The position numbers were made by a program, and so were the translations under genes. Positions 11,293-57,307 of a stretch of DNA of 64,000 nt are shown here, in pieces (the first letter of the stretch is position 1; each line of letters begins with the position of its first letter). The notes beneath the pieces were generated by a model that saw only the letters and a list, made by a program, of their open reading frames with translations, was not told where the DNA came from and made no database searches. Origin of the DNA: an uncultured Candidatus Cloacimonadota bacterium. Lineage in GTDB: Bacteria; Cloacimonadota; Cloacimonadia; Cloacimonadales; JAJBBL01. Location of the stretch: assembly GCA_964490765.1 (NCBI GenBank), contig CAZBDV010000010.1, forward strand, positions 2,451 to 66,450. The letters are read 5' to 3'.

Positions 11293-12159
11293 ATGTTGAC
11301 TACAATTTCAGAAACGATATCGAGATATCTCACACCGGAAGTCATCCGGACAGGAATCAGGGTAATAGTCATTATCTTTATCGGTCTTCCGCTGGTTAAG
11401 ATTTTATCCCGTTCTATCGGCAAAGCTATAGGTAAGAAGAAGGATTCACTTCAGACCGAAATGATCGTGACTAAGGGAATACTTTATACCGGGCTGGCAC
11501 TGATCTTCGTTGCATTGTTAAACGAATTCGGTTTTAAGATCTCGGTATTGCTGGGTGCTCTGGGTATATTCGGCCTGGCTCTCGGTTTTGCTTCTCAGAC
11601 GAGTGTATCCAATATTATCAGTGGACTGTTTCTCATAACAGAGAGACCGTGTGAGATCGGGGATATGGTCCAGATTGGTTCCACAACCGGAATAGTCCTC
11701 TCTATTGATATCCTCTCGACTAAACTCAGGACCTTCGATAACAGATATATCAGAATTCCGAACGAGACGATTCTCAAGACAGAGATGGTCAATATATCCA
11801 GATTTCCGATCCGGCGTATGGATCTCGATATCGGGGTAGCGTATAAAGAGGATATCCGGAGAGTTATCGCTGTCTTGAAGGATATAGCGGGAAAGAATCC
11901 CTACTGTCTGGAAGAACCGGCACCATTGATATTTCTCAACGGATTCGGTAGTTCTTCAATTAATATCAGATTTGCCATCTGGTTCGAGAAATCAGATTTC
12001 TTCAACCTGCGAACCAGTATCAATCTGGAGATCAAAGAGAGGTTCGATGCTGAAGGAATAGAGATCCCATTCCCGCATATCAGTGTATATACGGGTGAAG
12101 CAACAAAACCGCTGCCACTGAAGGTTACCGATTACAGTAAGAATTCAAAGCCGAGTTAG
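11293..12159 (+). CDS. Mechanosensitive ion channel, MscS family
   Basis: Pore-helix region GLALGFASQTSVSNIISGLFLITERPCEIGDMVQI followed by a beta domain. Confidence 0.85.
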   Translation: MLTTISETISRYLTPEVIRTGIRVIVIIFIGLPLVKILSRSIGKAIGKKKDSLQTEMIVTKGILYTGLALIFVALLNEFGFKISVLLGALGIFGLALGFASQTSVSNIISGLFLITERPCEIGDMVQIGSTTGIVLSIDILSTKLRTFDNRYIRIPNETILKTEMVNISRFPIRRMDLDIGVAYKEDIRRVIAVLKDIAGKNPYCLEEPAPLIFLNGFGSSSINIRFAIWFEKSDFFNLRTSINLEIKERFDAEGIEIPFPHISVYTGEATKPLPLKVTDYSKNSKPS

Positions 12160-12618
12160 AGTGCCACTCCCCTTATCTATCAGTATCAGATCAACATCTG
12201 CCTCTTCAAAGAGCTGTTGTGCAAGTTTGTCAGGGTAATCATCAAAGATGTATACTGTCTTGATTTCGGCATTGATAATTATCTTGGCACAAATACTGCA
12301 AGGGTGGTTCGTGCAGTAAAGCTCAGCACCTCTGGTTGAACTGCCGTTGATAGCGGCCTGGATAATAGCATTCTGCTCGGCATGGACACCACGACAGAGT
12401 TCATGCCGCTCTCCGGAAGGGACATTGTTGAGTTTTCGGATACATCCGGTATGTTCACAGTGAGCTATATGTTTCGGTGCTCCGTTGTATCCAGTTGAGA
12501 TAATCTGATTGTCTTTTACCAGAACGGCTCCGACCTTGCGTCTGAGACAGGTGGAACGTGATGAAACGAGAACTGCCATATCCATAAAATACTTTTGCCA
12601 GGTTGGGCGATTTTCCAT
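12145..12618 (-). CDS. dCMP deaminase (ComEB-type cytidine/deoxycytidylate deaminase)
   Basis: HAEQNAI and PCSICAK zinc-binding motifs. 157 aa. Confidence 0.85.
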   Translation of the reverse strand: MENRPTWQKYFMDMAVLVSSRSTCLRRKVGAVLVKDNQIISTGYNGAPKHIAHCEHTGCIRKLNNVPSGERHELCRGVHAEQNAIIQAAINGSSTRGAELYCTNHPCSICAKIIINAEIKTVYIFDDYPDKLAQQLFEEADVDLILIDKGSGTLTRL

Positions 12619-13767: not shown

Positions 13768-13822
13768 GACGGAATAAAGAGCCATGGAAGACTCTTTTTC
13801 CTATAACATTTGGAGAGTGATG

Positions 13823-16723
13823 ATGAAAAAAGGTTTATTAATATTCAGTATGATTATACTAATATCCGTTCTGCAGGCCGGACAGATCAGTTATCTGATA
13901 ACGCTCGACCGGTCAGAAGTCGCAGAAACCGATATTTTGCAGAGGCTCGATCTCTCGATCTATCATATCAGTGGTGATATTCTGATCACCGGTATCAATA
14001 GATTACAGGGATTGGATAGAGCGGGTATCAGTTACGAAGTAATCGATAATGATCCCTGGTCGGAGAAATACTACATAGTATCTGATAAAAGGGGTGAACA
14101 TATATCCATAGATCCTTCCTGGGGCAGAGTGATATACCGTGATGAAAAAATAGTCCTGATCAAAACTTCCCTCTTATCGGTAGAACAAATAACGAATATA
14201 CCCCACAGTATCACAGAGCTATATCCCAATCCGGTAAGATACAATTTCGAGAAGATCTATCCTTCACGTAATGCCAGGAAACCGATACAGAGAGATGATA
14301 TCGATACATTGCTCAACGAGATCAACCCGGACAGCCTTGGCTATTTCGTGCAGACGATGGAGAATTTCGTAACACGTTATTGCTTTGCCCCGAACAGGGA
14401 TGAAGTTGCTGACTGGATAAAGAATGAATTCTTAAGGTTCGGTTATACTGACGTCGTTGTTGATTCTTTCTATCAGAACAATGTCTGGCACAAGAATATC
14501 GTGACTACTATAGAGGGAACTGTTTCTCCCGATGAGATAGTCATCATTGGAGGACATCACGACTCTATAACCTCAGCATCTTACAGTAACCCGTCCAACC
14601 CCGCTCCCGGTGCCGATGATAACGCTACCGGGTCCGGAGCAGCAATGGAGATAGCCCGGGCAATGAAGGCAGTAAATTTTGAACCGGAGACTACGATCCG
14701 CTTTATCACATTCGCCGCTGAAGAGGTGGGACTCTGGGGTAGTCATCATTATGCCCAGCAGGCATACGATAACGGGATGAACATCAAGTTGATGATCAAT
14801 AACGACATGATAGGATATACCCCGTATGGCCCTGGAAACTGGACAATCAATCTCATAGAATACAGTGGTTTCGAAAATGAAGCCAATCTGGCCCGCCAGA
14901 TCATTGATCTCTATACTGATATTACTACTGTAACGAACGACTATAATTCTGCCTATTCAGACAGTTATCCCTTCTGGACAAGAGGATTTCCACCCATTTT
15001 CTTTATTGAAACCGATTTCAACCCTTATTATCATACCGTTAATGACCTATTTGTCCATATTGATATGGATTATGCTGTAGAGACCGTTAGAGGCTCCGCA
15101 GCGATAGCTGCTATGGTCAATGCCATCCCTTCTATACCGGAGGAATTCGTCGTTATCGATGCAGGTAATGGTTCAGAACTCAACCTGCAATGGGCTCCTG
15201 TTTCCTCCACCCCCATAGAGCATTATGAAATAGCGGTCGGACTGAGCAGTGGGAACTATACAGAGTATTATACTACAGAGGACACTCTTTATACTCTCTC
15301 TGGCCTTGATGAGGGGGTAACTTACTATATCGGGCTGAATGCAGTCAGTATAAACGGTTATGAGAGTGCCGTAATAGAGAAATTTGGAGTTCCCAGGACA
15401 GTTCCCCTGACTCCTGCAAATTTTGCCGATCTTCCACAGAGCGGTCATATAGAGCTGAGCTGGTCACCTAATCTGGAAGCAGATCTGGCTGGATATAACG
15501 TTTACAGATCTGAAAATCCGGAAGAGATCGGTTATCAACTCAATCAGGAACCGATAGTTACAGAATTCTATAACGATACCGAAGCAGAACCGGCAATGTA
15601 TTATTATTACAGCCTGACAGCGCTAGACGAAACCGGTAATGAGAGTGAAGCAACAGAGCAGGTCAGGTCAAGGCTGGTTACTATGGATCAGGGGGTTTTG
15701 ATTGTAGCCGACACTCCAGACGGTAACGGCAGCTTTCAGAATCCGTCCATAGAGAGTACAACCGAGTTCTACAATCAAATACTTAGTAATTATTCTCCCG
15801 ACATCTACCCCTTATGGGAAGAAGCTGAGGTAAAATTAGCCGATCTGGGGGCCTATTCGACAATTATCTGGCACAAGAACAACGGTTCGATGAATGTATA
15901 TGATAGCGGAACGATAAGTTCGATAAAGCAGTTTCTCGACCTTGGAGGGAATATCCTCTTTTCTCTCTATTTCCCCGGAAATCTTCTGGGGGGTGTTAAC
16001 CAGTATCCTTCGGAATTTGTCGATGGTGATTTTATATACGATTATCTGATGGTGGATCAGGTATATCGTAATAGTACAGCACGTTTCGATGCAGCCGAAC
16101 CACTCACCGATAGCTATCCGCTGATCTCAGTCGATGCAGAGAAAGCTCCTGAAGGGCTGGAATATCATATCATTAATATCGAAAGTATCAGACCCCGAAT
16201 ACCGGGAATAGCTATCTATGCCTACTCTTCATCGTTTCCTGAGGGAACTCCCGGAGCGGTAATGAATGACCTGCCCGTTGGTGTCGAATATATCGGTGAT
16301 GATTACAAATCTATCCTTTTGAGCTTTCCGCTCTATTACATGGAAGAAGATGATGCCCGTGATCTGATTAACTACATTATGGATGAGAAGTTCAACGAAA
16401 CAACCGGTGTAGAAGACGAGCAGGAACTCATCCTGCCCGGCAGCAGGAACTTCACCCTCTATCCGAATTATCCCAATCCCTTTAATCCAGAGACGGTTAT
16501 CAGGTATAGCTTGAGAGAGGAAACTGATATCGAACTAGCTATTTACAATATCAGGGGGCAGAAGATCAGGCTGCTTGATAGAGGTAAAAGAGAAGCGGGT
16601 GAACACAGTATAGTCTGGAACGGAAGGGATGACTCAGATAGAGAGGCCGCCAGCGGTATCTATTTTTTCAGATTGCATACCGACAGTGGTGATGAACTCA
16701 GGAAGATGTTACTGATAAAGTAA
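13823..16723 (+). CDS. Secreted M28-family aminopeptidase with Fn3-like domains and a T9SS C-terminal sorting domain
   Basis: M28 metal ligands GGHHDS, GADDNATGSGAAMEIAR, FAAEEVGLWGS, NNDMIG. GYNVYRS...YYYSLTALD Fn3-like modules. C-terminus YPNYPNPFNPETVIRYSL...SGIYFFRL...RKMLLIK. Start chosen at the ATG after GGAGAG (track start 13784). Confidence 0.85.
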   Translation: MKKGLLIFSMIILISVLQAGQISYLITLDRSEVAETDILQRLDLSIYHISGDILITGINRLQGLDRAGISYEVIDNDPWSEKYYIVSDKRGEHISIDPSWGRVIYRDEKIVLIKTSLLSVEQITNIPHSITELYPNPVRYNFEKIYPSRNARKPIQRDDIDTLLNEINPDSLGYFVQTMENFVTRYCFAPNRDEVADWIKNEFLRFGYTDVVVDSFYQNNVWHKNIVTTIEGTVSPDEIVIIGGHHDSITSASYSNPSNPAPGADDNATGSGAAMEIARAMKAVNFEPETTIRFITFAAEEVGLWGSHHYAQQAYDNGMNIKLMINNDMIGYTPYGPGNWTINLIEYSGFENEANLARQIIDLYTDITTVTNDYNSAYSDSYPFWTRGFPPIFFIETDFNPYYHTVNDLFVHIDMDYAVETVRGSAAIAAMVNAIPSIPEEFVVIDAGNGSELNLQWAPVSSTPIEHYEIAVGLSSGNYTEYYTTEDTLYTLSGLDEGVTYYIGLNAVSINGYESAVIEKFGVPRTVPLTPANFADLPQSGHIELSWSPNLEADLAGYNVYRSENPEEIGYQLNQEPIVTEFYNDTEAEPAMYYYYSLTALDETGNESEATEQVRSRLVTMDQGVLIVADTPDGNGSFQNPSIESTTEFYNQILSNYSPDIYPLWEEAEVKLADLGAYSTIIWHKNNGSMNVYDSGTISSIKQFLDLGGNILFSLYFPGNLLGGVNQYPSEFVDGDFIYDYLMVDQVYRNSTARFDAAEPLTDSYPLISVDAEKAPEGLEYHIINIESIRPRIPGIAIYAYSSSFPEGTPGAVMNDLPVGVEYIGDDYKSILLSFPLYYMEEDDARDLINYIMDEKFNETTGVEDEQELILPGSRNFTLYPNYPNPFNPETVIRYSLREETDIELAIYNIRGQKIRLLDRGKREAGEHSIVWNGRDDSDREAASGIYFFRLHTDSGDELRKMLLIK

Positions 16724-16748: not shown

Positions 16749-17906
16749 TTATGGCCCTTCGAGCGCCGAGGAAACGAGATCTTTGAGTTCTTCGTCGATT
16801 CTCCAGCTCCAGAGTGAGAGGGCAGATCTGCCATTATTATCGGTAAGCCCGGCATCACAGCCATGTTCAAGTAGTAGTTTGGTTATTTGATAATTTCCTG
16901 TAGCAAGGGCGTGAAAGAGGGAAGACCAACCGTTCTCATCAACAGCATTGACCTCGGCACCTTCTCTCAGTAAAATCCTTACTGGTTCTACTGCTCCCAG
17001 TTTAACACCCCTGATCAGGGGTGTTTCTTCAAACTGTAGTTCACGGATATCAGGATCAGCGCCTGCCTCAATAAGTTCAGCTACCAGTGCAGGATTATTC
17101 TCTTCTATTGCCAGGAAGATAGCAGGGAGATCATACCGCACGTCTCTAACATCGGGATCTGCACCCCCCTTCAGCAGGAGAGAGACTATCCGCTCATTAC
17201 GCTGATAGATCGCTTCGATAAGGGGATACTCACCTTTTGCTGTCTTCAACTCCGGATTGGCACCATACTGTATATGCAATTCAACCATCGAAATGTCGTT
17301 ATTGGCTACTGCAGATAACAAGGGAGTCCAGCGGTATCTGTCACTACGGTTGACCTGAGCACCTTTTGAGAGAAGCAGTTCTGCGACACGGCGATGTTGA
17401 AACAATTGAGCATATCTCAGAGGGGTCAGCCCATCTTCGTCCGGCCTGTCTATTTCTGCTCCGCTGTTAATCAATAATTCTACGGTCTCATAATGACCAT
17501 TTCTCGAACCGAGTAGCAGTGGGGTGAAAGAATCCCGGTCTATAAAATCGGGATCGGAACCGATAGCCAAAAGAAGTTCTGTTGTATGGACATATCCTTT
17601 ACCAGCTGCCCTGACCAGATCATCAGGCCGAAAATGGAGTTTTAATTCTATACGCCTGACTACCGGAATATCGTCTATGCCTGTAGTCAGGATCTTGCTC
17701 AATTCACTCTCCAGAACCTCCAGATCGGGAAATCTGCCCAGCTCGATTAAAAGCTCTATTATTTGCTCCATTGTTCTGTCCCTTTCCTCTATCTCGGGAA
17801 TTACTGCGTTGCCGGCTGTATCATCCGACGTATCTCCAGACAGCAGAGGAAGGATCACAATACAGGAGAGTATTGTCAGAAATAATAGTTTTGCAAAGAA
17901 ACTCAT
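16749..17906 (-). CDS. Secreted ankyrin-repeat protein
   Basis: N-terminal signal peptide (FFAKLLFLTILSCIVILPLLSG), then about 8 ANK repeats (e.g. TPLLLGSRNGHYETVELLINSGAEID, TPLLSAVANNDISMVELHIQYGANP). ATGA overlap with folA. Confidence 0.85.
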   Translation of the reverse strand: MSFFAKLLFLTILSCIVILPLLSGDTSDDTAGNAVIPEIEERDRTMEQIIELLIELGRFPDLEVLESELSKILTTGIDDIPVVRRIELKLHFRPDDLVRAAGKGYVHTTELLLAIGSDPDFIDRDSFTPLLLGSRNGHYETVELLINSGAEIDRPDEDGLTPLRYAQLFQHRRVAELLLSKGAQVNRSDRYRWTPLLSAVANNDISMVELHIQYGANPELKTAKGEYPLIEAIYQRNERIVSLLLKGGADPDVRDVRYDLPAIFLAIEENNPALVAELIEAGADPDIRELQFEETPLIRGVKLGAVEPVRILLREGAEVNAVDENGWSSLFHALATGNYQITKLLLEHGCDAGLTDNNGRSALSLWSWRIDEELKDLVSSALEGP

Positions 17907-18424
17907 CTATTCACGCTTCTCACATATATGAGGAAATCGTGCTCGTACTGGTTCTTTTCATCTCTAATCCCCTTTCTGGTAGATACCAGCTGCCATTCCC
18001 GTTCATCAAACTCCGGGAAGTGTGTATCACCGGGGAAATCTTTATGGATCCTCGTAATGTATAGCTTCTGTGCTTGAGGGAGAAAGAGTTTGAAGAGTTC
18101 AGCCCCACCTATAACGAATAACTCTTTATCTCTCCAGGAACCATTGCGAGATTTATTTTGCCAGAGTTGCTGAAACTCGGTGATATCGGCCACACGGCAG
18201 ACATCGTCATCTATCTCATTGCTGGAGAATATGACATTGATCCGGCCCGGTAGTGGTTTGCCTATCGATTCATAAGTCCGCCTGCCCATGATCACAATAT
18301 TATCCCAGGTCAAAGATTTAAAATATTGCAGGTCGGAAGGCAAATACCAGGGCATTCTGTTCCCTTCTCCAATTACACCATTTGCTGCTATGGCTACGAT
18401 GAGCGAGACATACGGTTTATTCAT
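17903..18424 (-). CDS. folA: Dihydrofolate reductase
   Basis: SLIVAIAANGVIGEGNRMPWYLPSDLQYFK...IVIMGRRTYESIGKPLPGRINVIFSS aligns with canonical DHFR. Confidence 0.9.
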   Translation of the reverse strand: MNKPYVSLIVAIAANGVIGEGNRMPWYLPSDLQYFKSLTWDNIVIMGRRTYESIGKPLPGRINVIFSSNEIDDDVCRVADITEFQQLWQNKSRNGSWRDKELFVIGGAELFKLFLPQAQKLYITRIHKDFPGDTHFPEFDEREWQLVSTRKGIRDEKNQYEHDFLIYVRSVNR

Positions 18425-19022
18425 CCAAAAACTTGATTACCTCTCCATCGGGGATGGGACGGACTTTTCCACCACTGTTCATATCCCTGACACCACCTGC
18501 GGTTATATGAGCTTCATCCGTATAACCTCTGTTTTCCCAATAACCGGATACATAGTCCTTAGAGAAAATAACTTCTACGACACTCTTGGCCGATTTATAA
18601 CCCCAGAGATAGGGGCAAAAGATCCTGACAGGGCCACCATAATCTTCATCAAGCAGTTCCCCGTCGAATTCGTAAGCGAGAAGAGTCTTCTCCTTCATAG
18701 CTATATCAAGGGGTATCGAAGTATCATACTTCTTGCCGACAGACCAGAAGCGAACGAAACCAGTCTCCGGTTTTATTCCTGCCAGTTCAGCGATATCGGA
18801 AAGCCTGACACCACCCCAGTGGCCGAATACCGAAAAACGGGTTACACTCGTCAATCTCCCCTCTACTACAGTTTTTGGTAGCTTGATTATCTCTTCCCAG
18901 CTCAAAATACCAGGCTTCTCACAGGTTCCTTTGATCTCGACCTGCCAGTTGTTACGGTCCAGTTTACCTGGATGTCCCTCTGCCCAGAATATAGGGGTAT
19001 CTAAATCTTTCAGTTTACTCAA
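18417..19022 (-). CDS. Small cytoplasmic sulfite-oxidase-fold (molybdopterin-binding oxidoreductase-like) protein
   Basis: 201 aa. LSWEEIIKLP...LTSVTRFS...LLAYEFDGELL...GGPVRIFCPYLWGYKSAKSVVEV matches the small SUOX-like family pattern (...HCVTRWS...LLAY..dGepL...G.PlRlvvP.lyfwKsakwl). TTG start, no signal peptide. Confidence 0.7.
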   Translation of the reverse strand: MSKLKDLDTPIFWAEGHPGKLDRNNWQVEIKGTCEKPGILSWEEIIKLPKTVVEGRLTSVTRFSVFGHWGGVRLSDIAELAGIKPETGFVRFWSVGKKYDTSIPLDIAMKEKTLLAYEFDGELLDEDYGGPVRIFCPYLWGYKSAKSVVEVIFSKDYVSGYWENRGYTDEAHITAGGVRDMNSGGKVRPIPDGEVIKFLDE

Positions 19023-19125
19023 AACTCCTCCTCGTCTCCTCTGACTCTATTTGCTGAGTGAAAAATCTCTCGATATATACTGTCAACTTTCTCGTAGATA
19101 TATCGTATCAAATTTTCAGCTATAA

Positions 19126-21612
19126 CTAATCTGACAGATTCGGGAAGACAATCTTTACGGTTGTTCTGATAAGAAAGGATGGATCATCCCTCATATCGAA
19201 CAAAAACCTCCTGCTCAAATCACTGTCAATATTCAACAGGCTCCGGGCTGTAACAAATCTTATATGTTCTGAAGGTGAATCGATGTAGGGGACGATCAGT
19301 GTGACTGCCTCATCGTCGGAGAACATTCCCAGAGCGGCAATGACGGTTGTGATATATTTTTTCTCTCTGAGAAAGCTGGAAAGATGGTCCAGATAGCTCT
19401 CAATTTGCAGGTCACCTATCAGATTGATAGCGTTTTTGACCTTCAGGGAATCTTCTGCTGTCAGGGCGTCTGCCAGATTATCCTGAAAGTATTCAGAACT
19501 AAGGGCAAATTCGTAAATTGCCCTATATTCCAAACCACTCTTCGTATCGAGTTTGTTCTCTATTATATGCTCTGTAACCGCTTCTTCGAACTCCAATATC
19601 CTTGCCCGGGCTCGTCTTACCCTGTCGACACTACTTCCAACTTCCCATTCGGCAGCAATGGAAAAAAGCTCTTCAACATCGGTCAGATCGTCGATAAAGG
19701 ATATATCTTCAGATACTATCTCTTCCTCATCCTCAACCTCTGTTTCATAATCTATTATCTCTGTATCGAGTCCGATACCATAAAGCCCTCTAACCCAAAA
19801 ACTATCGTTCTGCCAGATTGTATCCGGATAGATATCTACTCCTCCGAGATCCATGAAGATACCGATCCCGCCACTATCCCTCGCCTGATTGGCATAGCCG
19901 TAGTTGATATCGCGGTTGCGCTCGTAACGGTCATCTCCCGCAACATCCAGGAAGATGCCGACTGAATTGGTCAATCCAAGCCCGTTACCACCATCGATTG
20001 AATAATGATCGTCTCCCGACCTGTCGATCAGGAAACCGACGGCATAGTCGTGCCCTGCACCCTGGCCGGGCCCAAATCTCGAGTAGTAGGAATTATCTCC
20101 CGCCTCATTGAAAAGAAAGCCACCCGCCAGGTGAATTCCACTACCCTGGGCGTACTGCACTGCATTGAAAGTATCGTTACCACCACCGGAGATGAGAATA
20201 CCGAGAGCATACCAGTAACCAACGCCCTGGGCATAGATGCCTCCCTCGAAGCTGTCATTACCTCCTTTATCGTAAAGTATTCCCACACCACCACCCCAGT
20301 CGGGACGAACACCGAAGCCGAAACCCTGTGCCATCGAACGGTAGTCATCAGGCCTGAGTGGTTTGTGTTTGTACCTGGCTCCGGTGTAATAGAGGTCATT
20401 ACCGGCGAGGTCAATCAGAATACCTGCTCCAAGTGTACCACCAAAGCCCTGACTGTAACCTGTCGTATGATAGATGTCATTACCCTCGCTGTTAATATTT
20501 ATTGAAATCCCGAAGGTTGCAGCACCGAGAGTATAGCGGCCGAGACGGTAAATATCGTTACCCCCTCCATCGTAATGATACTGAATACCAGCAAAGGCAG
20601 AAAAAGCCAGATCGTCCCCGAAATAGCTGTCATCGCCAGTCCTGTCGATCGAATAGCCTATACCCCCAAGAACCCGGTTCAGGCCTCCCACTTTCCGGTT
20701 ACTCCAGAGATCGTCACCATCCATATCGATTACCAGATAGTAAGGGTGTTTGAAATCATTATAGAGTTCTCCATAATAGTTATCATTACCACCCGGTTCG
20801 ATTATCAGGGCAAACCGTTCATAATAGTTATCGTCTCCTCTCGTTCCAATGACAAAATCGCCCCACTCGGTTGTTTGTCTTAAGGGTGATTTATTGCTGA
20901 ATTCAAACCGGTTCAGGTTATCATTGAGAACTTCAGTGCCGTGACAGAAAACCTTACCTGCTTTTACAAGCATCGCCCAATCTATCTTATCGAGGATCTC
21001 TTTGATCTCAATCAGAGGGAGTTCGTCCAATTCCGAATCTGCCAGTTCCGGATAGAATTTCTCGTACCGCTCATCATCTCCTGTATCTGACCACATCTTA
21101 TAAGAGAGACGGGCAATGAGTTCCTTATCATTCTCTGTCATAGTTTCAAATGCCTGGCTACGGTATCTTTCAGCTGAAAGAAATAGCATCTCTACATAAT
21201 CGAAAAGGTCATACTCATTCTGAACATTGAGAGTCATATAATCCGAGAAATACTTTTTCGATTCAACCACATCGAGTTCTCCGGTCAGAATCTGATCGTC
21301 ATAAGAGAAGATTGTTCCGGCAATACCGGTTATCATCTTTTCCGAATCTCCCTTATTCATCATATCGCGCAGGTTATCGACGAAACCGGGGAATTCCATA
21401 GGACGGTTGATGATATCGACTATACGGTTGATCTTGTATTCTGTTGAGAGTGACCAGTCTTTGATAAAACCGAGAGAATTAGTTTCCTGACCTGCCCGCT
21501 GAAGAAGTGAATCTACGAGAGTGTACTCGTATTCTTCCATTACTGTTCCACTCAGTGTAACCTGTAGAGCAATAATGATTGCCATTAGTAACAGATATTT
21601 CCTGCATTCCAT
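19126..21612 (-). CDS. Large secreted repeat protein: N-terminal domain, beta-solenoid-like GGNDxY repeats, C-terminal HEAT-like repeats
   Basis: Signal peptide. At least 12 copies of G(G/D)(N/D)D-x-(Y/F) spaced about 22-28 aa apart (GGNDNYYG, GDDSYFG, GGGNDIYR, EGNDIYH, AGNDLYY, GGNDSFEG, GGNDTFNA, AGDNSYY, SGDDHYS, AGDDRYE...). The C-terminus has helical HEAT-like repeats. Confidence 0.7.
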   Translation of the reverse strand: MECRKYLLLMAIIIALQVTLSGTVMEEYEYTLVDSLLQRAGQETNSLGFIKDWSLSTEYKINRIVDIINRPMEFPGFVDNLRDMMNKGDSEKMITGIAGTIFSYDDQILTGELDVVESKKYFSDYMTLNVQNEYDLFDYVEMLFLSAERYRSQAFETMTENDKELIARLSYKMWSDTGDDERYEKFYPELADSELDELPLIEIKEILDKIDWAMLVKAGKVFCHGTEVLNDNLNRFEFSNKSPLRQTTEWGDFVIGTRGDDNYYERFALIIEPGGNDNYYGELYNDFKHPYYLVIDMDGDDLWSNRKVGGLNRVLGGIGYSIDRTGDDSYFGDDLAFSAFAGIQYHYDGGGNDIYRLGRYTLGAATFGISININSEGNDIYHTTGYSQGFGGTLGAGILIDLAGNDLYYTGARYKHKPLRPDDYRSMAQGFGFGVRPDWGGGVGILYDKGGNDSFEGGIYAQGVGYWYALGILISGGGNDTFNAVQYAQGSGIHLAGGFLFNEAGDNSYYSRFGPGQGAGHDYAVGFLIDRSGDDHYSIDGGNGLGLTNSVGIFLDVAGDDRYERNRDINYGYANQARDSGGIGIFMDLGGVDIYPDTIWQNDSFWVRGLYGIGLDTEIIDYETEVEDEEEIVSEDISFIDDLTDVEELFSIAAEWEVGSSVDRVRRARARILEFEEAVTEHIIENKLDTKSGLEYRAIYEFALSSEYFQDNLADALTAEDSLKVKNAINLIGDLQIESYLDHLSSFLREKKYITTVIAALGMFSDDEAVTLIVPYIDSPSEHIRFVTARSLLNIDSDLSRRFLFDMRDDPSFLIRTTVKIVFPNLSD

Positions 21613-21863: not shown

Positions 21864-24800
21864 TTACTTAAGGAGAGTCATCTTTTTTATCTCCCGGTAC
21901 CCTCTATCCGTTTGCAGGTAGTAGAAATAGATTCCAGAAGAACAGTTATCACCCTTTTCATCCTTTCCATTCCAGTCAATCTGATGATATCCGGGCAGGT
22001 ACAGATCATCAATGATCAGGGTCCGAACTTTCCGTCCTGCTATGTTGTAGATAGTCAGTGTAACCCTGCTCTCTTCAGCAAGCGAGAATTTTATAAGCGT
22101 ATCGGGATTGAAGGGATTGGGTATGGCATTATGCAGCTTTGTCTCCAGAGGTTCGACAGGATCATCGATACTGCTCACTATCTCATATTCTGCGACAGCT
22201 ATATCGCTCGGAAGCCATTCAGCCTTATAGGCTCGGGCTTTTAGAGTAGTATCCTGGTTCAGCAAAACAGGTTCGCTGTATAAATAGGAATTCTGAGTGG
22301 GATCACTCCCGTTCAGAGTATAATAGATGTGAGTATCTTCGATAGTGCAGCTAATGGTAACGAGAATCTGTTCTTCATAAGTTCCTGCTTCTGGTGAGAA
22401 TGCTGGAGTAGATATCTTTGGCGGGACAATAATCGTTACTGATTCCGAAGGATCTGATTCCGCTATATCATAGAGGGCAGTAACGTAATATGTATAGGTT
22501 GAATCAAACTCGATATCATTGTCCAGATAGTTGAACTCTGTTATCAATTCCTCATTGATCATCTCCTCATTTCTGTAAACATTGAAACCGAGAAACTCCA
22601 GGTTTCGCCGATTCTCTGCCCTTTTCATCAGGGGTGGTTCATCAATTAAGGGCAGCCTGGAAGCATAAAAATCGGGTGAGAGGTACCATACGAGATAGAT
22701 CGACTCATAGTTGTTCTGTGGTGTAGCATTCAGGTATTGCGGGATTGGAGGGGAGACGAATTGCAGTTCGAAATCAACTCCACCTGTCGTAGTGTTAGGT
22801 TCTACAAGTACCTCTTCTATTATGAGTGTCTGGTAGTACTCCAGAGAAGCTCTGACTGCGTAAACACCCGGAATGAGTGGCAGGGAATAATAACCTTCAT
22901 TATCGGGATTGACACTGAAACCGGAAGCGGAAACCTCAACCTCAGATACTTCGCCATATTCTCCTGCAAGGGTGACAATCCCCTCAATTGAACCGGCAGA
23001 AGTAGCATCAGCAATGATAACATCGTCAATACACCAATTTCTGTCATTTTCGGCAGTATAGTTCCATTTGAGTCTGACATCGGAATGACTAGCAATCTGG
23101 GGAACGGAGAGATAACAATAAGCCGGATTGTCTGTTGTCTCTGACCAGCTCTCCAGAGTAACCCAGTTAAGACCATTATCGATACTGTAGGAGAGGGTAC
23201 CTGTTGCAGTGCCGGAACCTCTTCTGAAGTAATGAGTGAAAGAGATAACGGGTTCGACACAGCTGGTCAGATCGATCCTGGGTGTTATGAGATCTGCATT
23301 CTGAGCATTACCAGTCCCATAATAATTGCTGTTGATATATGCATAATTACCAGTTGTTCCTATCAGGCCACTATAAGTCATGGATCCGAACTCCCAGGTC
23401 TGTCCCATTCCATTATAGTCGATACTCTGCCAGAGGTCAGGTATATCGAACGATTCGTTAAAATATTCGCCAAACGGAAGGTTTAGAGAAGAATAATCCG
23501 TTCTCCCAACGGCTCTTCTTCCGGAGGAGTATTCATAGGCTGCTGTATAAGAGAAGGCTTTGTAATAGTATTTAGTATTCTCCTGCAGACCTGTATGACT
23601 GAAGGAGTTGGTACTGCCAATATAGAGAACAGTTCCCCCACCCGGTATCTCTTCCCCGACATCATAGGAAGAACCGGTATCCGGAGAGCCCAGAACATCA
23701 TTCTCCGACCAGATAATCATCACGTTATCGTTATTGCTGTTTTGCTCCCAATCCAGCTCTATCTCAGTCAATCCAGCTGTTGTTGCGGTGAAAAGAGAGG
23801 GGTTCATAACATCACCGAGATAAGTCTGGGTTAAGAGTAGAGCTTCGTTTGCATTGAGTCTCCCACTACCAAGTAGCCCTAAATAATTGGGATTAACAGA
23901 ATAATGATCGTCAGCACTGTCACTCAAGATATCAAGGACTGTATCATTATCGAGTATGACATCATAACGGTAAGCGAGTGAGATAACAAGTGCTGCAACC
24001 CCCGAGACATGTGGACAGGCAACTGAAGTTCCCTGGGCATATTCATATCCATTATTCATTACTGTACTCAAAATTCCTCTGGCAGAGATTATATCGGTTT
24101 CTCCTCCAGGTGCAGAAATATCGATCCAGCTGCCGTAATTAGAATAATAGGCCTTCTGGTCCTGGTTCGTGGTGGCTGCTACAGCATAAGTCCCGGAATA
24201 AAAGGCGGGATACCAGTCACCGGAAGAATCACTGTTACCGGCCGCAAAGATTACTATCCCACCATCCATAACATCCCCGCCACCATTAGTGTTGAAATAA
24301 TCAATAGCATCAAGAACAATCTGCTCATATACACCTGCCGGGGTATAAGTCCAGCTGTTCTGTGATATTGCCGCCCCAATATCTGCTGCTCCTATCATTG
24401 CTAGATGTATATTATTGAAACTATTCTCACTGACAATCTGGGCACTCATCAATCTTATGCCGTCAGAACTGCCGGAACCTCCCGCTATACCGGCAATACC
24501 GGTACTATTGTTGGTAGCGGCTGCAATTATTCCGGCAACGAATGTCCCATGATCTCCAGGAGTTACCGTCATACTGTTACTGTGATAATTGTAACCTGTA
24601 TATGGCCACATATTCGGTGCCAGATCTGCATGATCGTAATCTATACCCTGGTCAAGAACTGCTACAATGACATCGGAATGCCCTTTTTCGATATTCCAGG
24701 CGTTCACCATAGATATATCTGCTCCGGGAGTTCCCCCAACCTGACCAGTATTATTCAGATTCCACTGACTGGTAAACTGGGGGTCATTAGGTGTCCAGCG

Positions 24801-25298
24801 GGGAGTGTCATCTGCAGCGTTTCGCTTAACTTCATAGTTAAGCAGTTTCTTCTTGTACTCCGGTTCAGCGATACTAATTTCCGGTAACTTCTCATAGGCA
24901 GAGACAACTTCAGGAATAGCAAAATCGGTGGAAAAATGCAGTTCATACCAGAGATGGAAACCCCATTCACAATGCCTGGCAGAATTCTTCTCATCCAGTA
25001 ACTCGGAATCGTATAACCAGCGAATATCCCTGACAGCATAGATGCTGTTCAACTCATCAATCGCTGCTATCCCGAATCGGATAATACTTACACCATCAAC
25101 CACTGCGGGTTGCAGGTTAAGCTTAGAAGAATATTCGGGGTTGATCTTTATTCTTATATGTCCGTTATAATAAGCAGATTCTTCCAGAGCAGCCAGGTCA
25201 ATGGGTGGAAGTTCTCCCCTCTGTAAAGGTATCGCGTTGAGAAGCCCACACAGAGCAATGGTGACTGTTAGGATGGTGATCATTCTTCTTAGTATCAT
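21864..25298 (-). CDS. Secreted subtilisin-like serine peptidase (S8) with accessory beta domains and a T9SS C-terminal sorting domain
   Basis: Catalytic triad contexts VAVLDQGIDYDH (D), HGTFVAGIIAA (H), GTSVACPHVSGVAAL (S). Signal peptide. Fn3-like and IYYTLNGSDPT (chitobiase-C-like) modules. C-terminus IPNPFNPDTLIKFSL...SGIYFYYL...KKMTLLK. Confidence 0.9.
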   Translation of the reverse strand: MILRRMITILTVTIALCGLLNAIPLQRGELPPIDLAALEESAYYNGHIRIKINPEYSSKLNLQPAVVDGVSIIRFGIAAIDELNSIYAVRDIRWLYDSELLDEKNSARHCEWGFHLWYELHFSTDFAIPEVVSAYEKLPEISIAEPEYKKKLLNYEVKRNAADDTPRWTPNDPQFTSQWNLNNTGQVGGTPGADISMVNAWNIEKGHSDVIVAVLDQGIDYDHADLAPNMWPYTGYNYHSNSMTVTPGDHGTFVAGIIAAATNNSTGIAGIAGGSGSSDGIRLMSAQIVSENSFNNIHLAMIGAADIGAAISQNSWTYTPAGVYEQIVLDAIDYFNTNGGGDVMDGGIVIFAAGNSDSSGDWYPAFYSGTYAVAATTNQDQKAYYSNYGSWIDISAPGGETDIISARGILSTVMNNGYEYAQGTSVACPHVSGVAALVISLAYRYDVILDNDTVLDILSDSADDHYSVNPNYLGLLGSGRLNANEALLLTQTYLGDVMNPSLFTATTAGLTEIELDWEQNSNNDNVMIIWSENDVLGSPDTGSSYDVGEEIPGGGTVLYIGSTNSFSHTGLQENTKYYYKAFSYTAAYEYSSGRRAVGRTDYSSLNLPFGEYFNESFDIPDLWQSIDYNGMGQTWEFGSMTYSGLIGTTGNYAYINSNYYGTGNAQNADLITPRIDLTSCVEPVISFTHYFRRGSGTATGTLSYSIDNGLNWVTLESWSETTDNPAYCYLSVPQIASHSDVRLKWNYTAENDRNWCIDDVIIADATSAGSIEGIVTLAGEYGEVSEVEVSASGFSVNPDNEGYYSLPLIPGVYAVRASLEYYQTLIIEEVLVEPNTTTGGVDFELQFVSPPIPQYLNATPQNNYESIYLVWYLSPDFYASRLPLIDEPPLMKRAENRRNLEFLGFNVYRNEEMINEELITEFNYLDNDIEFDSTYTYYVTALYDIAESDPSESVTIIVPPKISTPAFSPEAGTYEEQILVTISCTIEDTHIYYTLNGSDPTQNSYLYSEPVLLNQDTTLKARAYKAEWLPSDIAVAEYEIVSSIDDPVEPLETKLHNAIPNPFNPDTLIKFSLAEESRVTLTIYNIAGRKVRTLIIDDLYLPGYHQIDWNGKDEKGDNCSSGIYFYYLQTDRGYREIKKMTLLK

Positions 25299-25525
25299 GG
25301 AATATCAATCTCCCTGTATTTAATTTATAACAGTAACTATCATATATTTCTGATGTCAATAATTATCTGACATCTAACAAGACTATGGAAGGAGAGTTCA
25401 GGCAAATCATTTATCAATTATTCTCATCTCTAACCGAGAAAATGGATTTTTTTTTTGCGCTGGAGTAGAAAGTCGTTAGATTGGTTAGTAAATGATAACA
25501 TAAAGTGGTTGGCAAGGAGTTACTT

Positions 25526-26347
25526 ATGTTAAGAAAAATTATCGAAATCGACGAAGAGAAGTGTACTGGATGCGGGCTCTGTATACCCGACTGTCCGGAG
25601 GGAGCATTACAGATTATTGATGGTAAGGCTAGACTTATCAGCGACCTTTTTTGTGACGGTCTGGGAGCTTGTGTAGGGGCCTGCCCCGAGGGGGCTATGC
25701 ATGTCGTAGAGCGAGAGGCACCACCCTATAATGAAGAGATCGTAATGGAGAATATAATCAAAGCGGGTCCGAATACGATTAAGGCTCATCTGGAACATCT
25801 ACTCGATCATGGTGAGCACGATCTTTATGCAGAGGCAGTAGCAGTCTTAAAGAAGAAGAATCTTCCTGTTCCCGAGATATCCGAGAATGTAGGGAAGATG
25901 GCTTGTGGTTGCCCCGGTTCTCATACGAGAGCGATATCTCGGGAAAATCCAGAGGAACCTTTATCTTCTGTGAAACAGAAATCGGAGCTGAGGCAGTGGC
26001 CTGTGCAGCTACATCTGATCAATCCTCAGGCACGGTATCTCGACAATGCTGATATTTTGCTTGCTGCTGATTGCACACCCTTTGCGTATGCTAATTTCCA
26101 TCAACGATTCATCAAAGGTAAGATAGCAATCACTCTCTGTCCAAAGTTAGACCAGGGAATGGAAGATTATCTGGACAAACTGCTAACGATCTTCAAGACT
26201 CACGATATCAAATCTGTTACGGTAGTACATATGGAGGTTCCCTGTTGTACCGGTATAGTTCTTCTTGCAGAGCGAGCGATCAGGGAATCAGGCAAAAACA
26301 TTATTTTGAAAGAATACACCATCTCGGTAGACGGCGAGATTATCTGA
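25526..26347 (+). CDS. 4Fe-4S dicluster domain protein with a Cys-rich C-terminal domain
   Basis: CTGCGLCIPDCP and CDGLGACVGACP ferredoxin motifs, then further CGCP / CC motifs. ATG at 25526 follows AAGGAG (track start 25505 is a GTG). Confidence 0.75.
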   Translation: MLRKIIEIDEEKCTGCGLCIPDCPEGALQIIDGKARLISDLFCDGLGACVGACPEGAMHVVEREAPPYNEEIVMENIIKAGPNTIKAHLEHLLDHGEHDLYAEAVAVLKKKNLPVPEISENVGKMACGCPGSHTRAISRENPEEPLSSVKQKSELRQWPVQLHLINPQARYLDNADILLAADCTPFAYANFHQRFIKGKIAITLCPKLDQGMEDYLDKLLTIFKTHDIKSVTVVHMEVPCCTGIVLLAERAIRESGKNIILKEYTISVDGEII

Positions 26348-26366
26348 ACCGGGAGGATCAGGAATT

Positions 26367-26966: not shown

Positions 26967-26986
26967 AAGATTGGAGGTAATTAACG

Positions 26987-28600: not shown

Positions 28601-28711
28601 ACCTGTAGAAAATAGGTGATTCAGTAGTTATATATAACCTTGTGAACTTAATGTCGTAAAGCATCAATTAAATCAAATAACTAACCGATAAAATGAGGGA
28701 AGGAGATTGCT

Positions 28712-57298: not shown

Positions 57299-57307
57299 GA
57301 GTTAAAA

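What the first reader, a model, noticed from the sequence alone, without database searches (positions are those of the whole stretch)
16749..19022. Translationally coupled operon: SUOX-fold protein with apparent Cys->Ser at the Mo ligand, DHFR, secreted ankyrin-repeat protein
- The three minus-strand genes overlap: ATGAATAA at 18417-18424 and ATGA at 17903-17906. They are almost certainly co-translated.
- The first is a 201-aa cytoplasmic member of the small sulfite-oxidase-like family. The family motif, as I recall it, reads ...HCVTRWS..., with the Cys that ligates molybdenum. This protein reads LTSVTRFS, a Ser at that position. That suggests loss or alteration of Mo catalysis.
- It is fused in expression to dihydrofolate reductase, another pterin-handling enzyme.
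- It is also coupled to a 385-aa protein with a signal peptide and about 8 ankyrin repeats. This eukaryote-like interaction module is uncommon in free-living bacteria.
Inference (speculative): the SUOX-fold protein may act as a pterin- or folate-binding partner of DHFR rather than as a Mo enzyme. I have no explanation for the ankyrin coupling.
Basis: partly seen in the sequence, partly recalled or inferred. Interest (0 to 1): 0.55.

Follow-up and report, generated by a model that had tools for sequence, protein, structure and literature searches.

The report
Serine-type YedY-like protein beside folA
The three overlapping genes are real; the first belongs to a large, apparently unstudied branch of the sulfite-oxidase-fold family in which the molybdenum-binding cysteine is always serine, but its link to dihydrofolate reductase is gene order in one Cloacimonadota lineage, not a family trait.

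Summary
Three minus-strand genes encode a 201-aa PF00174 protein, a 173-aa FolA-type DHFR and a 385-aa protein with 8 ankyrin repeats and a Sec-like signal. They overlap by 8 and 4 nt.

Ser59 of the 201-aa protein aligns without gaps to the Mo ligand Cys102 of E. coli YedY/MsrP. An AlphaFold model (pLDDT 96.5) superposes on YedY over its full length (TM 0.80).

The Ser is not a one-off. It is present in 120/120 close homologues and 118/118 members of a sister group, about 3,000 clusters in total. These come from strict anaerobes: Cloacimonadota, Syntrophorhabdia, Syntrophales, Desulfobacterales, Deferribacterales. Among other small SUOX proteins, 122 of 124 aligned stretches have Cys.

Every other family-wide conserved position is kept, including the equivalents of chicken sulfite oxidase Lys301 and Tyr322. 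I therefore favour a protein that still binds a pyranopterin cofactor, with an O-donor ligand or none.

The DHFR-partner idea is not supported. folA is adjacent in only 5 related Cloacimonadota loci out of about 90, and neighbours elsewhere are unrelated housekeeping genes.

The operon is ordinary. The Ser clade is a moderately interesting new variant, and it has not been tested biochemically.

The parts
19126..21612 (-). 828-aa protein with an N-terminal signal-like segment, at least 8 'GGNDxY'-type repeats and a C-terminal HEAT-like region. It is the upstream member of the conserved four-gene block and may belong to the same transcript.
   Evidence: ORF. HEAT_2 hit E 1.4e-05, below the Pfam cut-off. 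Repeats counted. Orthologues at 53-68% identity lie directly upstream of the Ser-type gene in L001, L002, L018 and L083.
19025..19033 (-). Shine-Dalgarno-like GAGGAGGAG, 2 nt upstream of the TTG start of the first gene.
   Evidence: Read directly from the sequence. The sigma-70 consensus scan found no promoter or terminator in the 103-nt gap 19023-19125.
18417..19022 (-). 201-aa cytoplasmic, single-domain YedY/MsrP-like SUOX-fold protein of the Ser-type clade.
   Evidence: PF00174 E 2.5e-29. AlphaFold pLDDT 96.5. YedY 1xdy TMq 0.80, rmsd 2.0 A over about 204 columns. Identical protein P0001 found in metagenomes.
18846..18848 (-). AGT codon of Ser59, the position that corresponds to the Mo-ligand Cys (YedY Cys102).
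   Evidence: Profile alignment to 1xdq. Ser in 238/238 clade members listed, against Cys in 122/124 aligned stretches of other small SUOX proteins. Codons in related loci: 83 AGY, 3 TCY.
18417..18424 (-). 8-nt overlap ATGAATAA: the folA start lies inside the end of the SUOX-fold gene.
   Evidence: The same geometry occurs in L001, L002 and L083.
17903..18424 (-). 173-aa dihydrofolate reductase (FolA type).
   Evidence: PF00186 E 1e-55, covering the full-length profile. Best NCBIfam hit is type 3 DHFR, 139 bits against a cut-off of 168. LPSDLQYF (Asp31), MGRRTYESIGKPLPGR, VIGGA and GDTHFP read directly.
17903..17906 (-). 4-nt overlap ATGA: the ankyrin gene start overlaps the folA stop.
   Evidence: L083 has the same 4-nt overlap. 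L018 instead has a gap of about 345 nt.
16749..17906 (-). 385-aa exported protein: a Sec-like signal peptide, a linker of about 70 residues, then 8 ankyrin repeats.
   Evidence: Ank families. Repeat register. Signal-like N-termini in all four orthologues. No T9SS sorting tail, unlike many neighbouring genes.

Best explanation
**What it is.** The 201-aa protein is a cytoplasmic, single-domain relative of the periplasmic methionine-sulfoxide reductase YedY/MsrP. It belongs to a large, uncharacterised clade of the sulfite-oxidase (SUOX) fold in which the cysteine that ligates molybdenum is always serine.

**How it most likely works (inferred).** The protein still holds a pyranopterin (Mo or W) cofactor in the canonical cleft. 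The metal either takes the Ser59 oxygen as its protein ligand, as in the Dor/Tor-type DMSO-reductase family, or has no protein ligand. Either way the chemistry would differ from Cys-type enzymes. The substrate is unknown.

**Relation to its neighbours.** The gene behaves as a stand-alone housekeeping gene. In one Cloacimonadota lineage it is the first cistron of a tightly packed string: Ser-type SUOX, folA, then an exported ankyrin protein, preceded by an 828-aa exported repeat protein. There it has its own strong ribosome-binding site, and the two downstream genes overlap it head to tail. Co-expression with DHFR is a matter of gene order in that lineage, not a shared pterin function.

**Shown versus inferred.**
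- Shown: the gene structure, the fold, the Ser at the Cys position, its invariance, the retention of the other conserved residues, and the distribution of gene neighbours.
- Inferred: cofactor binding, Ser-metal ligation, catalysis and co-translation.
For: **Identity of the Ser position**
- Ser59 pairs with YedY Cys102 in an alignment with no gap around the site.

**Fold**
- The model has pLDDT 96.5.
- It matches YedY 1xdy/1xdq at TMq 0.78-0.80 and rmsd about 2.1 A over about 204 columns, which includes both termini.
- It matches the degenerate pterin-binder PruR only at TMq 0.50-0.55 over about 140 columns.

**Invariance of Ser**
- Ser occurs in 120/120 close homologues and 118/118 sister-group proteins. 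Cys occurs in 122/124 aligned stretches of other small SUOX representatives.
- Both AGY and TCY Ser codons occur.

**Retention of the cofactor cleft**
- Every column conserved at 90% or more in the Cys-type proteins is kept in both Ser subclades: G32, V60, W69, G71, Y99, G129, P131, R133, P137, K143, K146, G160, W162, G166. So are Y142 (87%) and Y167 (89%). Only Cys itself and its flank change, DFH to RLT.
- K146 aligns with chicken sulfite oxidase Lys301 and Y167 with Tyr322 (alignment). PMC10673323 describes both as part of the hydrogen-bond network of the pterin and the equatorial oxygen.

**Ser is compatible with a bound cofactor**
- Human sulfite oxidase C207S keeps the enedithiolate Raman bands (PMC9370002).
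- Chicken C185S structures exist (3hbg and 3hbp).

**Nearest relatives**
- The nearest Cys-type relatives (P0140, P0144, P0145) share the clade's C-terminal extension.
- Two of them carry TAT-type signals, typical of cofactor-loaded export.

**Cofactor supply**
- Cloacimonadota carry the formate dehydrogenase gene fdoG, so the phylum should make molybdopterin (PMC12590816).

**Independence from folA**
- folA is adjacent in 3 of 80 genome loci, plus the window and L083.
- No neighbour is conserved across the loci.
Against: - No direct evidence exists for any bound cofactor or metal.
- In characterised SUOX enzymes, Cys-to-Ser variants are essentially inactive. For YedY, the title of Brokx et al. 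2005 (reference list seen) says the Cys is needed for assembly and function; I could not read that paper. A Ser site might therefore be non-catalytic.
- No Moco riboswitch lies upstream of the gene in the window or in 24 related loci.
- No Moco biosynthesis or Mo/W transport gene lies nearby in the window or in the contexts examined: 8 contigs with Pfam-annotated genes, and the recurrent neighbours of the 80 loci.
- PruR shows that Cys-less SUOX folds can bind ordinary pterins (PMC11194511).
- The four-gene block with folA has persisted through considerable divergence (DHFR 46-59% identity). Some selective link in that lineage cannot be excluded.
Confidence: 0.5

Rival explanations
1. The protein binds a pterin other than Moco, in the manner of PruR. 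The Cys-less SUOX fold would hold a reduced simple pterin or folate-type molecule and act as a sensor, carrier or buffer, with no metal and no catalysis. A link to folate or pterin metabolism is possible but not required.
For: - PruR is a solved SUOX-fold protein without the Cys. It binds neopterin or tetrahydromonapterin and depends on a pteridine reductase (PMC11194511).
- The query's model does match PruR structures significantly (E about 1e-6).
- Tyr99 is conserved. It may correspond to the pterin-stacking Tyr that PMC11194511 says PruR shares with YedY, but I did not check that alignment.
- In one lineage the gene is coupled to folA. In one sister-group contig it overlaps chorismate synthase.
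Against: - PruR has Trp at the Cys position, a truncated hairpin, a shortened cleft and a secretion signal, and it sits beside dcpA. None of these applies here.
- The hairpin aligns to YedY 91-137 without gaps.
- The match to YedY is far better than the match to PruR: TMq 0.80 against about 0.53.
- All conserved residues of Moco-type relatives are retained, including the Lys301 and Tyr322 equivalents.
- The profile search of PDB sequences did not find PruR at E <= 0.01.
Confidence: 0.2
2. The protein is a non-catalytic Moco/Wco-binding protein. It would bind the finished or metal-free pyranopterin cofactor as a carrier, store or insertion helper for the many Mo/W enzymes of these anaerobes. 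Ser would replace Cys so that the cofactor is held but released easily.
For: - The cleft residues are retained but the covalent-type ligand is missing.
- The clade is restricted to strict anaerobes such as Syntrophorhabdus, Syntrophus relatives, Cloacimonadota and Desulfobacterales. My own knowledge, not tested here, is that these groups are rich in W/Mo enzymes.
- Sequence conservation across phyla is very high, about 65% identity between Cloacimonadota and Syntrophorhabdia. That would fit a protein with many interaction constraints.
- The gene is single-domain with no fusions and no conserved redox partner.
Against: - Active-site-type residues are also invariant: the Tyr322 equivalent Y167, and the N-terminal P-[VI]-F-x-A-[EG]-G motif that aligns with the YedY segment containing residues 45-47. 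A mere carrier would not need them.
- The gene is never found next to moa, moe or mog genes or Mo/W transporters in the contexts examined.
- No SUOX-fold carrier is known.
Confidence: 0.15
3. The Ser-type protein would be a dedicated partner of DHFR, binding or channelling dihydro- or tetrahydrofolate or a related pterin. That would be why the two genes are translationally coupled.
For: - The junction overlaps by 8 nt, and this is conserved in the window, L001, L002 and L083. folA also follows the gene in L018.
- Both proteins belong to pterin-handling superfamilies.
- The PruA/PruR pair is a precedent for a reductase working with a SUOX-fold binder.
Against: - Only 5 of about 90 examined loci have folA nearby, and all 5 are related Cloacimonadota. 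Four of them form one exclusive branch of the protein tree.
- Other Cloacimonadota couple the same gene, sometimes with the same kind of overlap, to a PP2C phosphatase, MtnA or a glycerate-kinase-like gene.
- The clade is highly conserved regardless of neighbour, so its function cannot depend on an adjacent folA.
- Overlapping junctions are frequent in this genome, 5 of 27 co-directional pairs.
- The same operon also holds two exported repeat proteins, so it is functionally mixed.
Confidence: 0.07

Closest known systems
E. coli YedY/MsrP (PDB 1xdq, 1xdy), group 1 of the sulfite oxidase family
   Same: - It is the best structural match, over the whole length: TMq 0.80, rmsd about 2 A.
- The N-terminal F-x-x-x-G motif, the hairpin R-[ML]-x-[CS]-V-x-x-[WF]-S and the C-terminal motifs are shared.
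- The best NCBIfam hit is MsrP.
- The nearest Cys-type relatives carry the MsrP-like motif RM[KR]CVE.WS.
   Different: - Ser replaces Cys102.
- There is no TAT signal, so the protein is cytoplasmic.
- It is about 60 residues shorter.
- No MsrQ-type haem partner gene lies nearby.
- The MsrP model scores 65 bits against a cut-off of 207.
- Sequence identity is 22%.
Group 3 'uncharacterised single-subunit cytoplasmic' SO-family proteins of environmental bacteria and archaea (Kappler 2008, as summarised in PMC7759655); these are the about 200-aa DFHCVTGWS / DFHCVTRWS proteins
   Same: - The size, the single domain and the cytoplasmic location are the same, and function is unknown in both.
- The G.P.R...P..Y.KS.KW and GYWE.RGY motifs are shared.
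   Different: - Those proteins have the canonical Cys, in the motif DFHC.
- They lack the clade-specific N-terminal motifs (P10, F12, G16, P18) and C-terminal motifs (I173, G176, D180, N182, R188, I190, G193, E194, F198).
- Against the clade profile they score about 100-120 bits, against 170-350 bits within the Ser clade.
PruR, the periplasmic pterin-binding SUOX-fold protein (PDB 7kou, 7kos, 7kom, 7rkb, 7kp2; PMC11194511)
   Same: - It has a SUOX fold without the Mo-ligand Cys.
- It is a small single-domain protein.
- It is the precedent for a non-enzymatic, pterin-binding role.
   Different: - PruR has Trp at the Cys position, a truncated hairpin, a shortened cleft and a secretion signal, and it forms an operon with dcpA.
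- Here the residue is Ser, the hairpin and cleft signature are full length, the protein is cytoplasmic, and no DGC/PDE gene is adjacent.
- The structural match is weak: TMq about 0.53.
Engineered Cys-to-Ser sulfite oxidases (human C207S; chicken C185S, PDB 3hbg and 3hbp)
   Same: - The same residue change sits at the same position.
- These variants show the fold can keep the pyranopterin dithiolene cofactor with Ser (PMC9370002; PDB entries).
   Different: - Those are laboratory mutants of a Cys-type enzyme and are catalytically crippled (my own knowledge).
- Here Ser is natural and invariant, and it comes with co-varying flanks (RLT-S-V) and extra conserved termini.
Dor/Tor-type (type III) DMSO-reductase-family S-/N-oxide reductases
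   Same: They offer a possible functional analogy only: a Ser oxygen as the protein ligand of a pyranopterin-bound Mo or W (PMC7759655).
   Different: The fold is unrelated, the cofactor is bis-PGD, and the proteins are much larger. No homology exists.

Membership tests
SUOX fold / Oxidored_molyb (PF00174) | Significant match to the family profile above the curated cut-off | tested here: met
   102.5 bits against a cut-off of 24, E 2.5e-29.
SUOX fold / Oxidored_molyb (PF00174) | Three-dimensional SUOX fold | tested here: met
   The pLDDT 96.5 model matches YedY, SorA, SoxC, chicken and plant sulfite oxidase and nitrate reductase, all with probability 1.00.
Sulfite oxidase family of Mo enzymes (as defined in PMC7759655) | A cysteine ligand to Mo | tested here: not met
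   Ser59 occupies the position of YedY Cys102. Ser occurs in 238/238 clade members listed, and no Cys is conserved across the clade.
Sulfite oxidase family of Mo enzymes (as defined in PMC7759655) | Conserved cofactor-cleft residues (Lys301 and Tyr322 of chicken sulfite oxidase, the G.P.R...P motif, the conserved Tyr and Trp) | tested here: met
   K146, Y167, G129-P131-R133-P137, Y99 and W69 are all invariant or nearly so in both Ser subclades.
Sulfite oxidase family of Mo enzymes (as defined in PMC7759655) | Bound Mo-pyranopterin cofactor and oxotransferase activity | not testable with these tools
   This needs purified protein: ICP-MS, Form A assay, EPR and activity assays.
MsrP/YedY (NF003767) | Equivalog-level profile score | tested here: not met
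   65.5 bits against a cut-off of 207.
MsrP/YedY (NF003767) | TAT signal peptide and periplasmic location | tested here: not met
   The N-terminus MSKLKDLDTPIFWAEGHPG has no twin-arginine motif and no hydrophobic segment. The family N-terminus is conserved from residue 1.
MsrP/YedY (NF003767) | Adjacent msrQ (haem b membrane partner) | tested here: not met
   The Pfam-annotated genes within 6-10 kb in 8 contigs include no ferric-reductase-type gene. None appears among the recurrent neighbour clusters that I inspected in the 80 loci.
PruR-type pterin-binding proteins | Pro-Trp at the former Cys position, truncated hairpin, secretion signal and downstream dcpA-type gene (PMC11194511) | tested here: not met
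   The residue is Ser, not Trp. The hairpin aligns to YedY without gaps. There is no signal. No GGDEF or EAL gene is adjacent. TMq is only about 0.53.
Dihydrofolate reductase FolA (PF00186) | Full-length profile match and catalytic/NADPH motifs | tested here: met
   188 bits, profile positions 2-159 of 159. Asp31 in LPSDL, GRRTYESIG..LPGR and VIGGA are read directly. The protein falls below every trimethoprim-resistance model cut-off.
Ankyrin-repeat proteins | Tandem 33-residue ANK repeats | tested here: met
   Ank_2 E 8.6e-42. Eight repeats with a 33-35 residue spacing.
Translationally coupled operon | Start codon overlapping the upstream stop; demonstrated dependence of downstream translation on upstream translation | tested here: inconclusive
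   The overlaps are present. The SUOX-folA overlap is conserved in three relatives and the folA-ank overlap in L083. Coupling itself needs reporter or ribosome-profiling experiments.

The most novel reading that the evidence does not exclude
The Ser-type clade comprises about 3,000 protein clusters at 90% identity, spread over several phyla of strict anaerobes. It could be a natural class of SUOX-fold Mo or W enzymes whose metal is held by a serine oxygen instead of the cysteine sulfur. The Cys ligand is treated as defining for the sulfite oxidase family, so this would be the first exception. The clade would have its own, still unknown, cytoplasmic substrate.
Probability: 0.3. Interest if true: 0.7.

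Novelty: new variant of a known kind. Interest (0 to 1): 0.45.

Why it matters
- The sulfite oxidase family is defined by one pyranopterin plus a cysteine ligand on Mo (PMC7759655). The amino-acid ligand is a major tuning element of Mo/W enzymes.
- A widespread, strongly conserved natural Ser variant would either widen the coordination chemistry known for this fold, or reveal a second Cys-less, non-catalytic use of it besides PruR.
- Either outcome is directly testable with one recombinant protein.
- For genome annotation, these proteins should not be labelled 'YedY / MsrP / DMSO-TMAO reductase catalytic subunit', as they are now.
- The link to folA should not be used to infer function.
- The operon itself (folA, an ankyrin protein, overlapping junctions) is ordinary.

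Tried and rejected
1. **A substitute Cys ligand.** Cys34 and Cys136 are conserved only in the close family. They are Val and Ile in the sister group and in the Cys-type proteins. Rejected as a clade-wide ligand.
2. **A conserved genomic partner.** I clustered all ORFs from 80 genome loci. No neighbour occurs in more than 20 loci. The recurrent ones look like RlmI-type methyltransferase, BamD/LptC-like, RsmG, histidine kinase, NAD(P)HX repair, PNPOx-like, PaaI thioesterase and cysteine synthase, as I read their sequences; Pfam was not run on them. The tightly coupled downstream genes, again read by eye, look like PP2C, MtnA, a glycerate-kinase-like gene, LMW-PTP/ArsC and an ArnT-like gene.
3. 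**Sister-group contexts.** These hold CrcB/AroC, YhdP with a hydrolase, RpiB with Map, and a DcuC-like gene. No common theme.
4. **Moco riboswitch.** None in the window or in 24 loci with long upstream regions.
5. **A fluoride link.** I saw one fluoride riboswitch in L045 and one adjacent crcB in L084. tblastn found no further crcB. Judged coincidence.
6. **Domain fusions.** The longer clade members are frameshifted or have mis-called starts.
7. **Moco biosynthesis genes in the window.** None among the 42 proteins scanned.
8. **Horizontal-transfer signal.** GC content is 0.44-0.46 across the operon, like its flanks.
9. **HMMER alignment to plant sulfite oxidase.** It placed the Cys in an insertion. 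I discounted it because SO-type enzymes carry a long insert there, and used the alignment to YedY, which has no gap around the site.
10. **Literature.** No paper in the searchable library describes a Ser-type SUOX clade. Workun 2008 and Pelletier 2008 could not be read, and Brokx 2005 and Kappler 2008 were not consulted.
12. **First structure model.** The 32-sequence alignment gave pLDDT 71. It was replaced by the 108-sequence model.


Full report
**1. Observation**

The region holds three minus-strand ORFs:
- 18417-19022, 201 aa. It starts at TTG, with GAGGAGGAG 2 nt upstream.
- 17903-18424, 173 aa.
- 16749-17906, 385 aa.

The stop and start codons overlap as ATGAATAA (18417-18424) and ATGA (17903-17906).

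Pfam assigns the three proteins to Oxidored_molyb PF00174 (E 2.5e-29), DHFR_1 PF00186 (E 1e-55) and ankyrin families (Ank_2, E 8.6e-42). NCBIfam's best hit for the first protein is MsrP, far below its cut-off. For the second it is type 3 DHFR.

The TTG start reproduces the conserved family N-terminus. The first protein has no export signal.

The ankyrin protein has 8 repeats in a 33-residue register. Its N-terminal segment looks like a Sec signal, and its orthologues in L001, L018 and L083 have one too.

Overlapping junctions are common in this genome. Five of 27 co-directional pairs in the window overlap.

**2. The Ser at the Mo-ligand position**

I searched a profile of 32 close homologues against PDB sequences. 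It aligns residues 18-94 to YedY residues 60-137 with no gap around the site. That puts Ser59 opposite Cys102, the Mo ligand of YedY: ARLTSVTRFSV against YRMRCVEAWSM.

HMMER's alignment to plant sulfite oxidase places the Cys in an insertion. SO-type enzymes carry a long insert at that point, so I regard that alignment as unreliable.

A first AlphaFold model from the shallow alignment was mediocre (pLDDT 71). A 108-sequence alignment spanning both Ser subclades gave pLDDT 96.5 and pTM 0.92.

Foldseek against the PDB gives these results:
- YedY (1xdy, 1xdq) ranks first: TMq 0.78-0.80, rmsd about 2.1 A, about 204 aligned columns. That is the entire protein, including both terminal extensions.
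- SorA, SoxC, animal and plant sulfite oxidases and nitrate reductase follow, at TMq 0.61-0.71.
- The Cys-less pterin binder PruR ranks lower still: TMq 0.50-0.55 over about 140 columns.

**3. The Ser is a clade character**

The protein search found 1,219 relatives at E <= 0.001. The best 120 are 62-100% identical to the query and almost all 200-202 aa long. They come from Cloacimonadota, Syntrophorhabdus, Syntrophus and other 'Deltaproteobacteria' MAGs.

An exhaustive HMMER search of 1.84 billion representatives shows three tiers:
- The close family collapses to one 50%-identity cluster, at 352 bits.
- A handful of sister representatives, 194-197 aa long, follow at 154-182 bits.
- The bulk of small SUOX proteins score about 100-120 bits.

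Searching with the sister group returned 1,785 more proteins. Named sources are Coatesbacteria, Desulfobacterales, Deferribacterales and Pseudomonadota MAGs.

I aligned all 388 retrieved sequences to one HMM:
- The ligand column is Ser in 120/120 close homologues and 118/118 sister proteins.
- It is Cys in 122 of 124 aligned stretches from other representatives that cover the column.

Cys34 and Cys136 are conserved only in the close family, so they cannot be clade-wide substitute ligands. In 86 orthologous loci the Ser codon is AGY 83 times and TCY 3 times. The single Cys hit is a distant paralogue in L053.

**4. What else is conserved**

I compared alignment columns between the Cys-type proteins and both Ser subclades.
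- Every position conserved at 90% or more in 122 Cys-type proteins is retained in both Ser subclades: G32, V60, W69, G71, Y99, G129, P131, R133, P137, K143, K146, G160, W162, G166. Y142 (87%) and Y167 (89%) are retained too.
- The changes are confined to the ligand itself and its upstream flank, DFH-C to RLT-S.
- The clade adds its own invariant N-terminal residues (P10, F12, G16, P18). These align with the YedY segment that contains residues 45-47.
- It also adds a C-terminal extension (I173, G176, D180, N182, R188, I190, G193, E194, F198).

Counting along the chicken sulfite oxidase alignment, K146 corresponds to Lys301 and Y167 to Tyr322. PMC10673323 places both residues in the hydrogen-bond network of the pterin and the equatorial oxygen.

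The nearest Cys-type relatives (P0140, P0144, P0145) share the C-terminal extension and the MsrP-like R-M-x-C-V-E motif. Two of them carry TAT-type signals. This suggests the Ser clade is a cytoplasmic offshoot of MsrP-like enzymes that carry the cofactor.

A Ser at this position is compatible with a bound cofactor. Human sulfite oxidase C207S keeps the enedithiolate Raman bands (PMC9370002), and chicken C185S structures exist (3hbg and 3hbp).

I therefore favour retention of a pyranopterin cofactor with an altered metal site. This is inference. Nothing here measures a cofactor.

**5. Is the folA link functional?**

- Of 80 genome loci that encode a close family member, only L001, L002 and L018 have a DHFR within 6 kb.
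- Adding the window's own metagenome contigs and the 353-kb Cloacimonetes contig L083 gives five lineages. All five share the block: 828-aa exported repeat protein, Ser-type gene, folA. The ankyrin gene follows in every one whose contig extends that far; L002 ends within folA.
- Across these lineages the identities are 68-79% for the SUOX protein, 46-59% for DHFR and 53-68% for the 828-aa protein.
- In a neighbour-joining tree the window, L001, L002 and L083 form an exclusive branch. L018 groups with other Cloacimonadota.

Everywhere else the neighbours differ.
- The recurrent ones, as I read their sequences, look like an RlmI-type methyltransferase, BamD/LptC-like proteins, RsmG, a histidine kinase, NAD(P)HX epimerase/dehydratase, a PNPOx-like protein, a PaaI thioesterase and cysteine synthase.
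- Other Cloacimonadota couple the gene, sometimes with the same 8-nt overlap, to what look like a PP2C phosphatase, MtnA or a glycerate-kinase-like gene.
- Sister-group genes sit beside crcB/aroC, a YhdP-like gene with a hydrolase, rpiB with map, or a DcuC-like gene.

No pterin, folate, Moco or redox-partner theme emerges. There are no true domain fusions. No Moco riboswitch precedes the gene in the window or in 24 loci.

The operon also mixes two cytoplasmic housekeeping enzymes with two exported repeat proteins. The DHFR-partner hypothesis is therefore not supported. The adjacency is a lineage-restricted gene order, probably hard to break because the genes overlap.

**6. Comparison with known systems**

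PMC7759655 defines sulfite-oxidase-family enzymes by a Mo-pyranopterin on a SUOX fold with a Cys ligand. It recognises three groups:
- YedY-like enzymes.
- The sulfite oxidising enzymes and nitrate reductases.
- Uncharacterised single-subunit cytoplasmic proteins.

The present protein resembles group 3 in size and location and group 1 in sequence and structure. It fails the Cys criterion and the MsrP criteria (score, TAT signal, msrQ).

PruR is the only characterised Cys-less SUOX fold I found (PMC11194511). It has Trp at the position, a truncated hairpin and cleft and a secretion signal, and it sits beside dcpA. None of these applies here.

I found no paper describing a Ser-type clade. However, Workun 2008 could not be read and Kappler 2008 was not consulted, so prior mention cannot be excluded.

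**7. Verdict**

- The gene arrangement is real but ordinary.
- The Ser substitution is real and turns out to mark a large, conserved, multi-phylum clade. This is the interesting part.
- The proposed functional tie to DHFR is not supported.
- Best explanation (confidence 0.5): a cytoplasmic YedY-like pyranopterin protein with a Ser or ligand-free metal site and an unknown substrate.
- Rivals: a PruR-like binder of simple pterins (0.2), a non-catalytic cofactor carrier (0.15), and a dedicated DHFR partner (0.07).
- Novelty: a new variant of a known kind. Interest: 0.45.

Noticed in passing
window 19126-21612 (-): An 828-aa protein has a signal-like N-terminus, at least 8 'GGNDxY'-type repeats and a weak C-terminal HEAT match. 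It is always found directly upstream of the Ser-type gene in the folA-linked lineage. Only 31-103 nt separate the two genes, and the scan found no promoter or terminator between them, so it may head the same transcript. Function unknown.
   Followed up: partly
loci L003-L007 compared with L018 and L040-L079 (Ser-type proteins): The window protein is about as close to Syntrophorhabdaceae and Syntrophus homologues (BLOSUM distance 0.285, about 67% identity) as to most other Cloacimonadota (0.277 or more). This means either extreme constraint or gene exchange between syntrophs that share a habitat. A 200-aa neighbour-joining tree cannot decide between the two.
   Followed up: partly
window 12145-12618 (-): A dCMP/cytidine deaminase gene lies about 5 kb from folA. 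The same synteny (MscS, deaminase, M28 peptidase, then the operon) is kept in L083. This is a possible loose thymidylate-pathway neighbourhood.
   Followed up: no
window 25505-29902 (+): A cluster typical of anaerobic stress defence: a ferredoxin-like 4Fe-4S protein, a TetR regulator, hybrid-cluster protein (Prismane, E 5e-163) and a flavodiiron-type protein (ODP + flavodoxin). The same cluster occurs near the operon in L083.
   Followed up: no
window 13784-16723, 21864-25298, 40141-42405, 43838-45862, 54890-59080, 60609-62255: Many large secreted proteins carry FlgD_ig / Por_Secre_tail (T9SS-type) C-terminal sorting domains. They include M28, S8 and M12 peptidases and a protein with 6 RCC1 repeats (40141-42405), another 'eukaryote-like' repeat module. 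The ankyrin protein lacks this tail.
   Followed up: no
L084 7623-9664; L045 8299-8363: In one sister-group contig the Ser-type gene abuts crcB (fluoride channel) upstream and overlaps chorismate synthase downstream. Another locus has a fluoride riboswitch 1.7 kb downstream. tblastn found no further crcB in 91 loci, so this is probably coincidence.
   Followed up: yes
L053 1383-1778: A distant Cys-type SUOX paralogue (31% identity) lies about 4 kb upstream of the Ser-type gene in the same Deltaproteobacteria contig. The two types therefore coexist in one genome.
   Followed up: no
window 18920-18922 and 18614-18616 (codons 34 and 136 of the 201-aa protein): Cys34 is invariant and Cys136 nearly so in the close family, but both are Val/Ile in the sister group and in Cys-type relatives. 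This looks like a family-specific Cys pair of unknown role. Their distance in the model could not be measured with the tools.
   Followed up: partly
proteins P0011, P0013, P0018 and many others: Public annotations call these Ser-type proteins 'DMSO/TMAO reductase YedYZ catalytic subunit', 'sulfoxide reductase YedY' or 'methionine sulfoxide reductase catalytic subunit'. They lack the Cys ligand, a TAT signal and an msrQ partner, so these names are probably over-annotation.
   Followed up: partly
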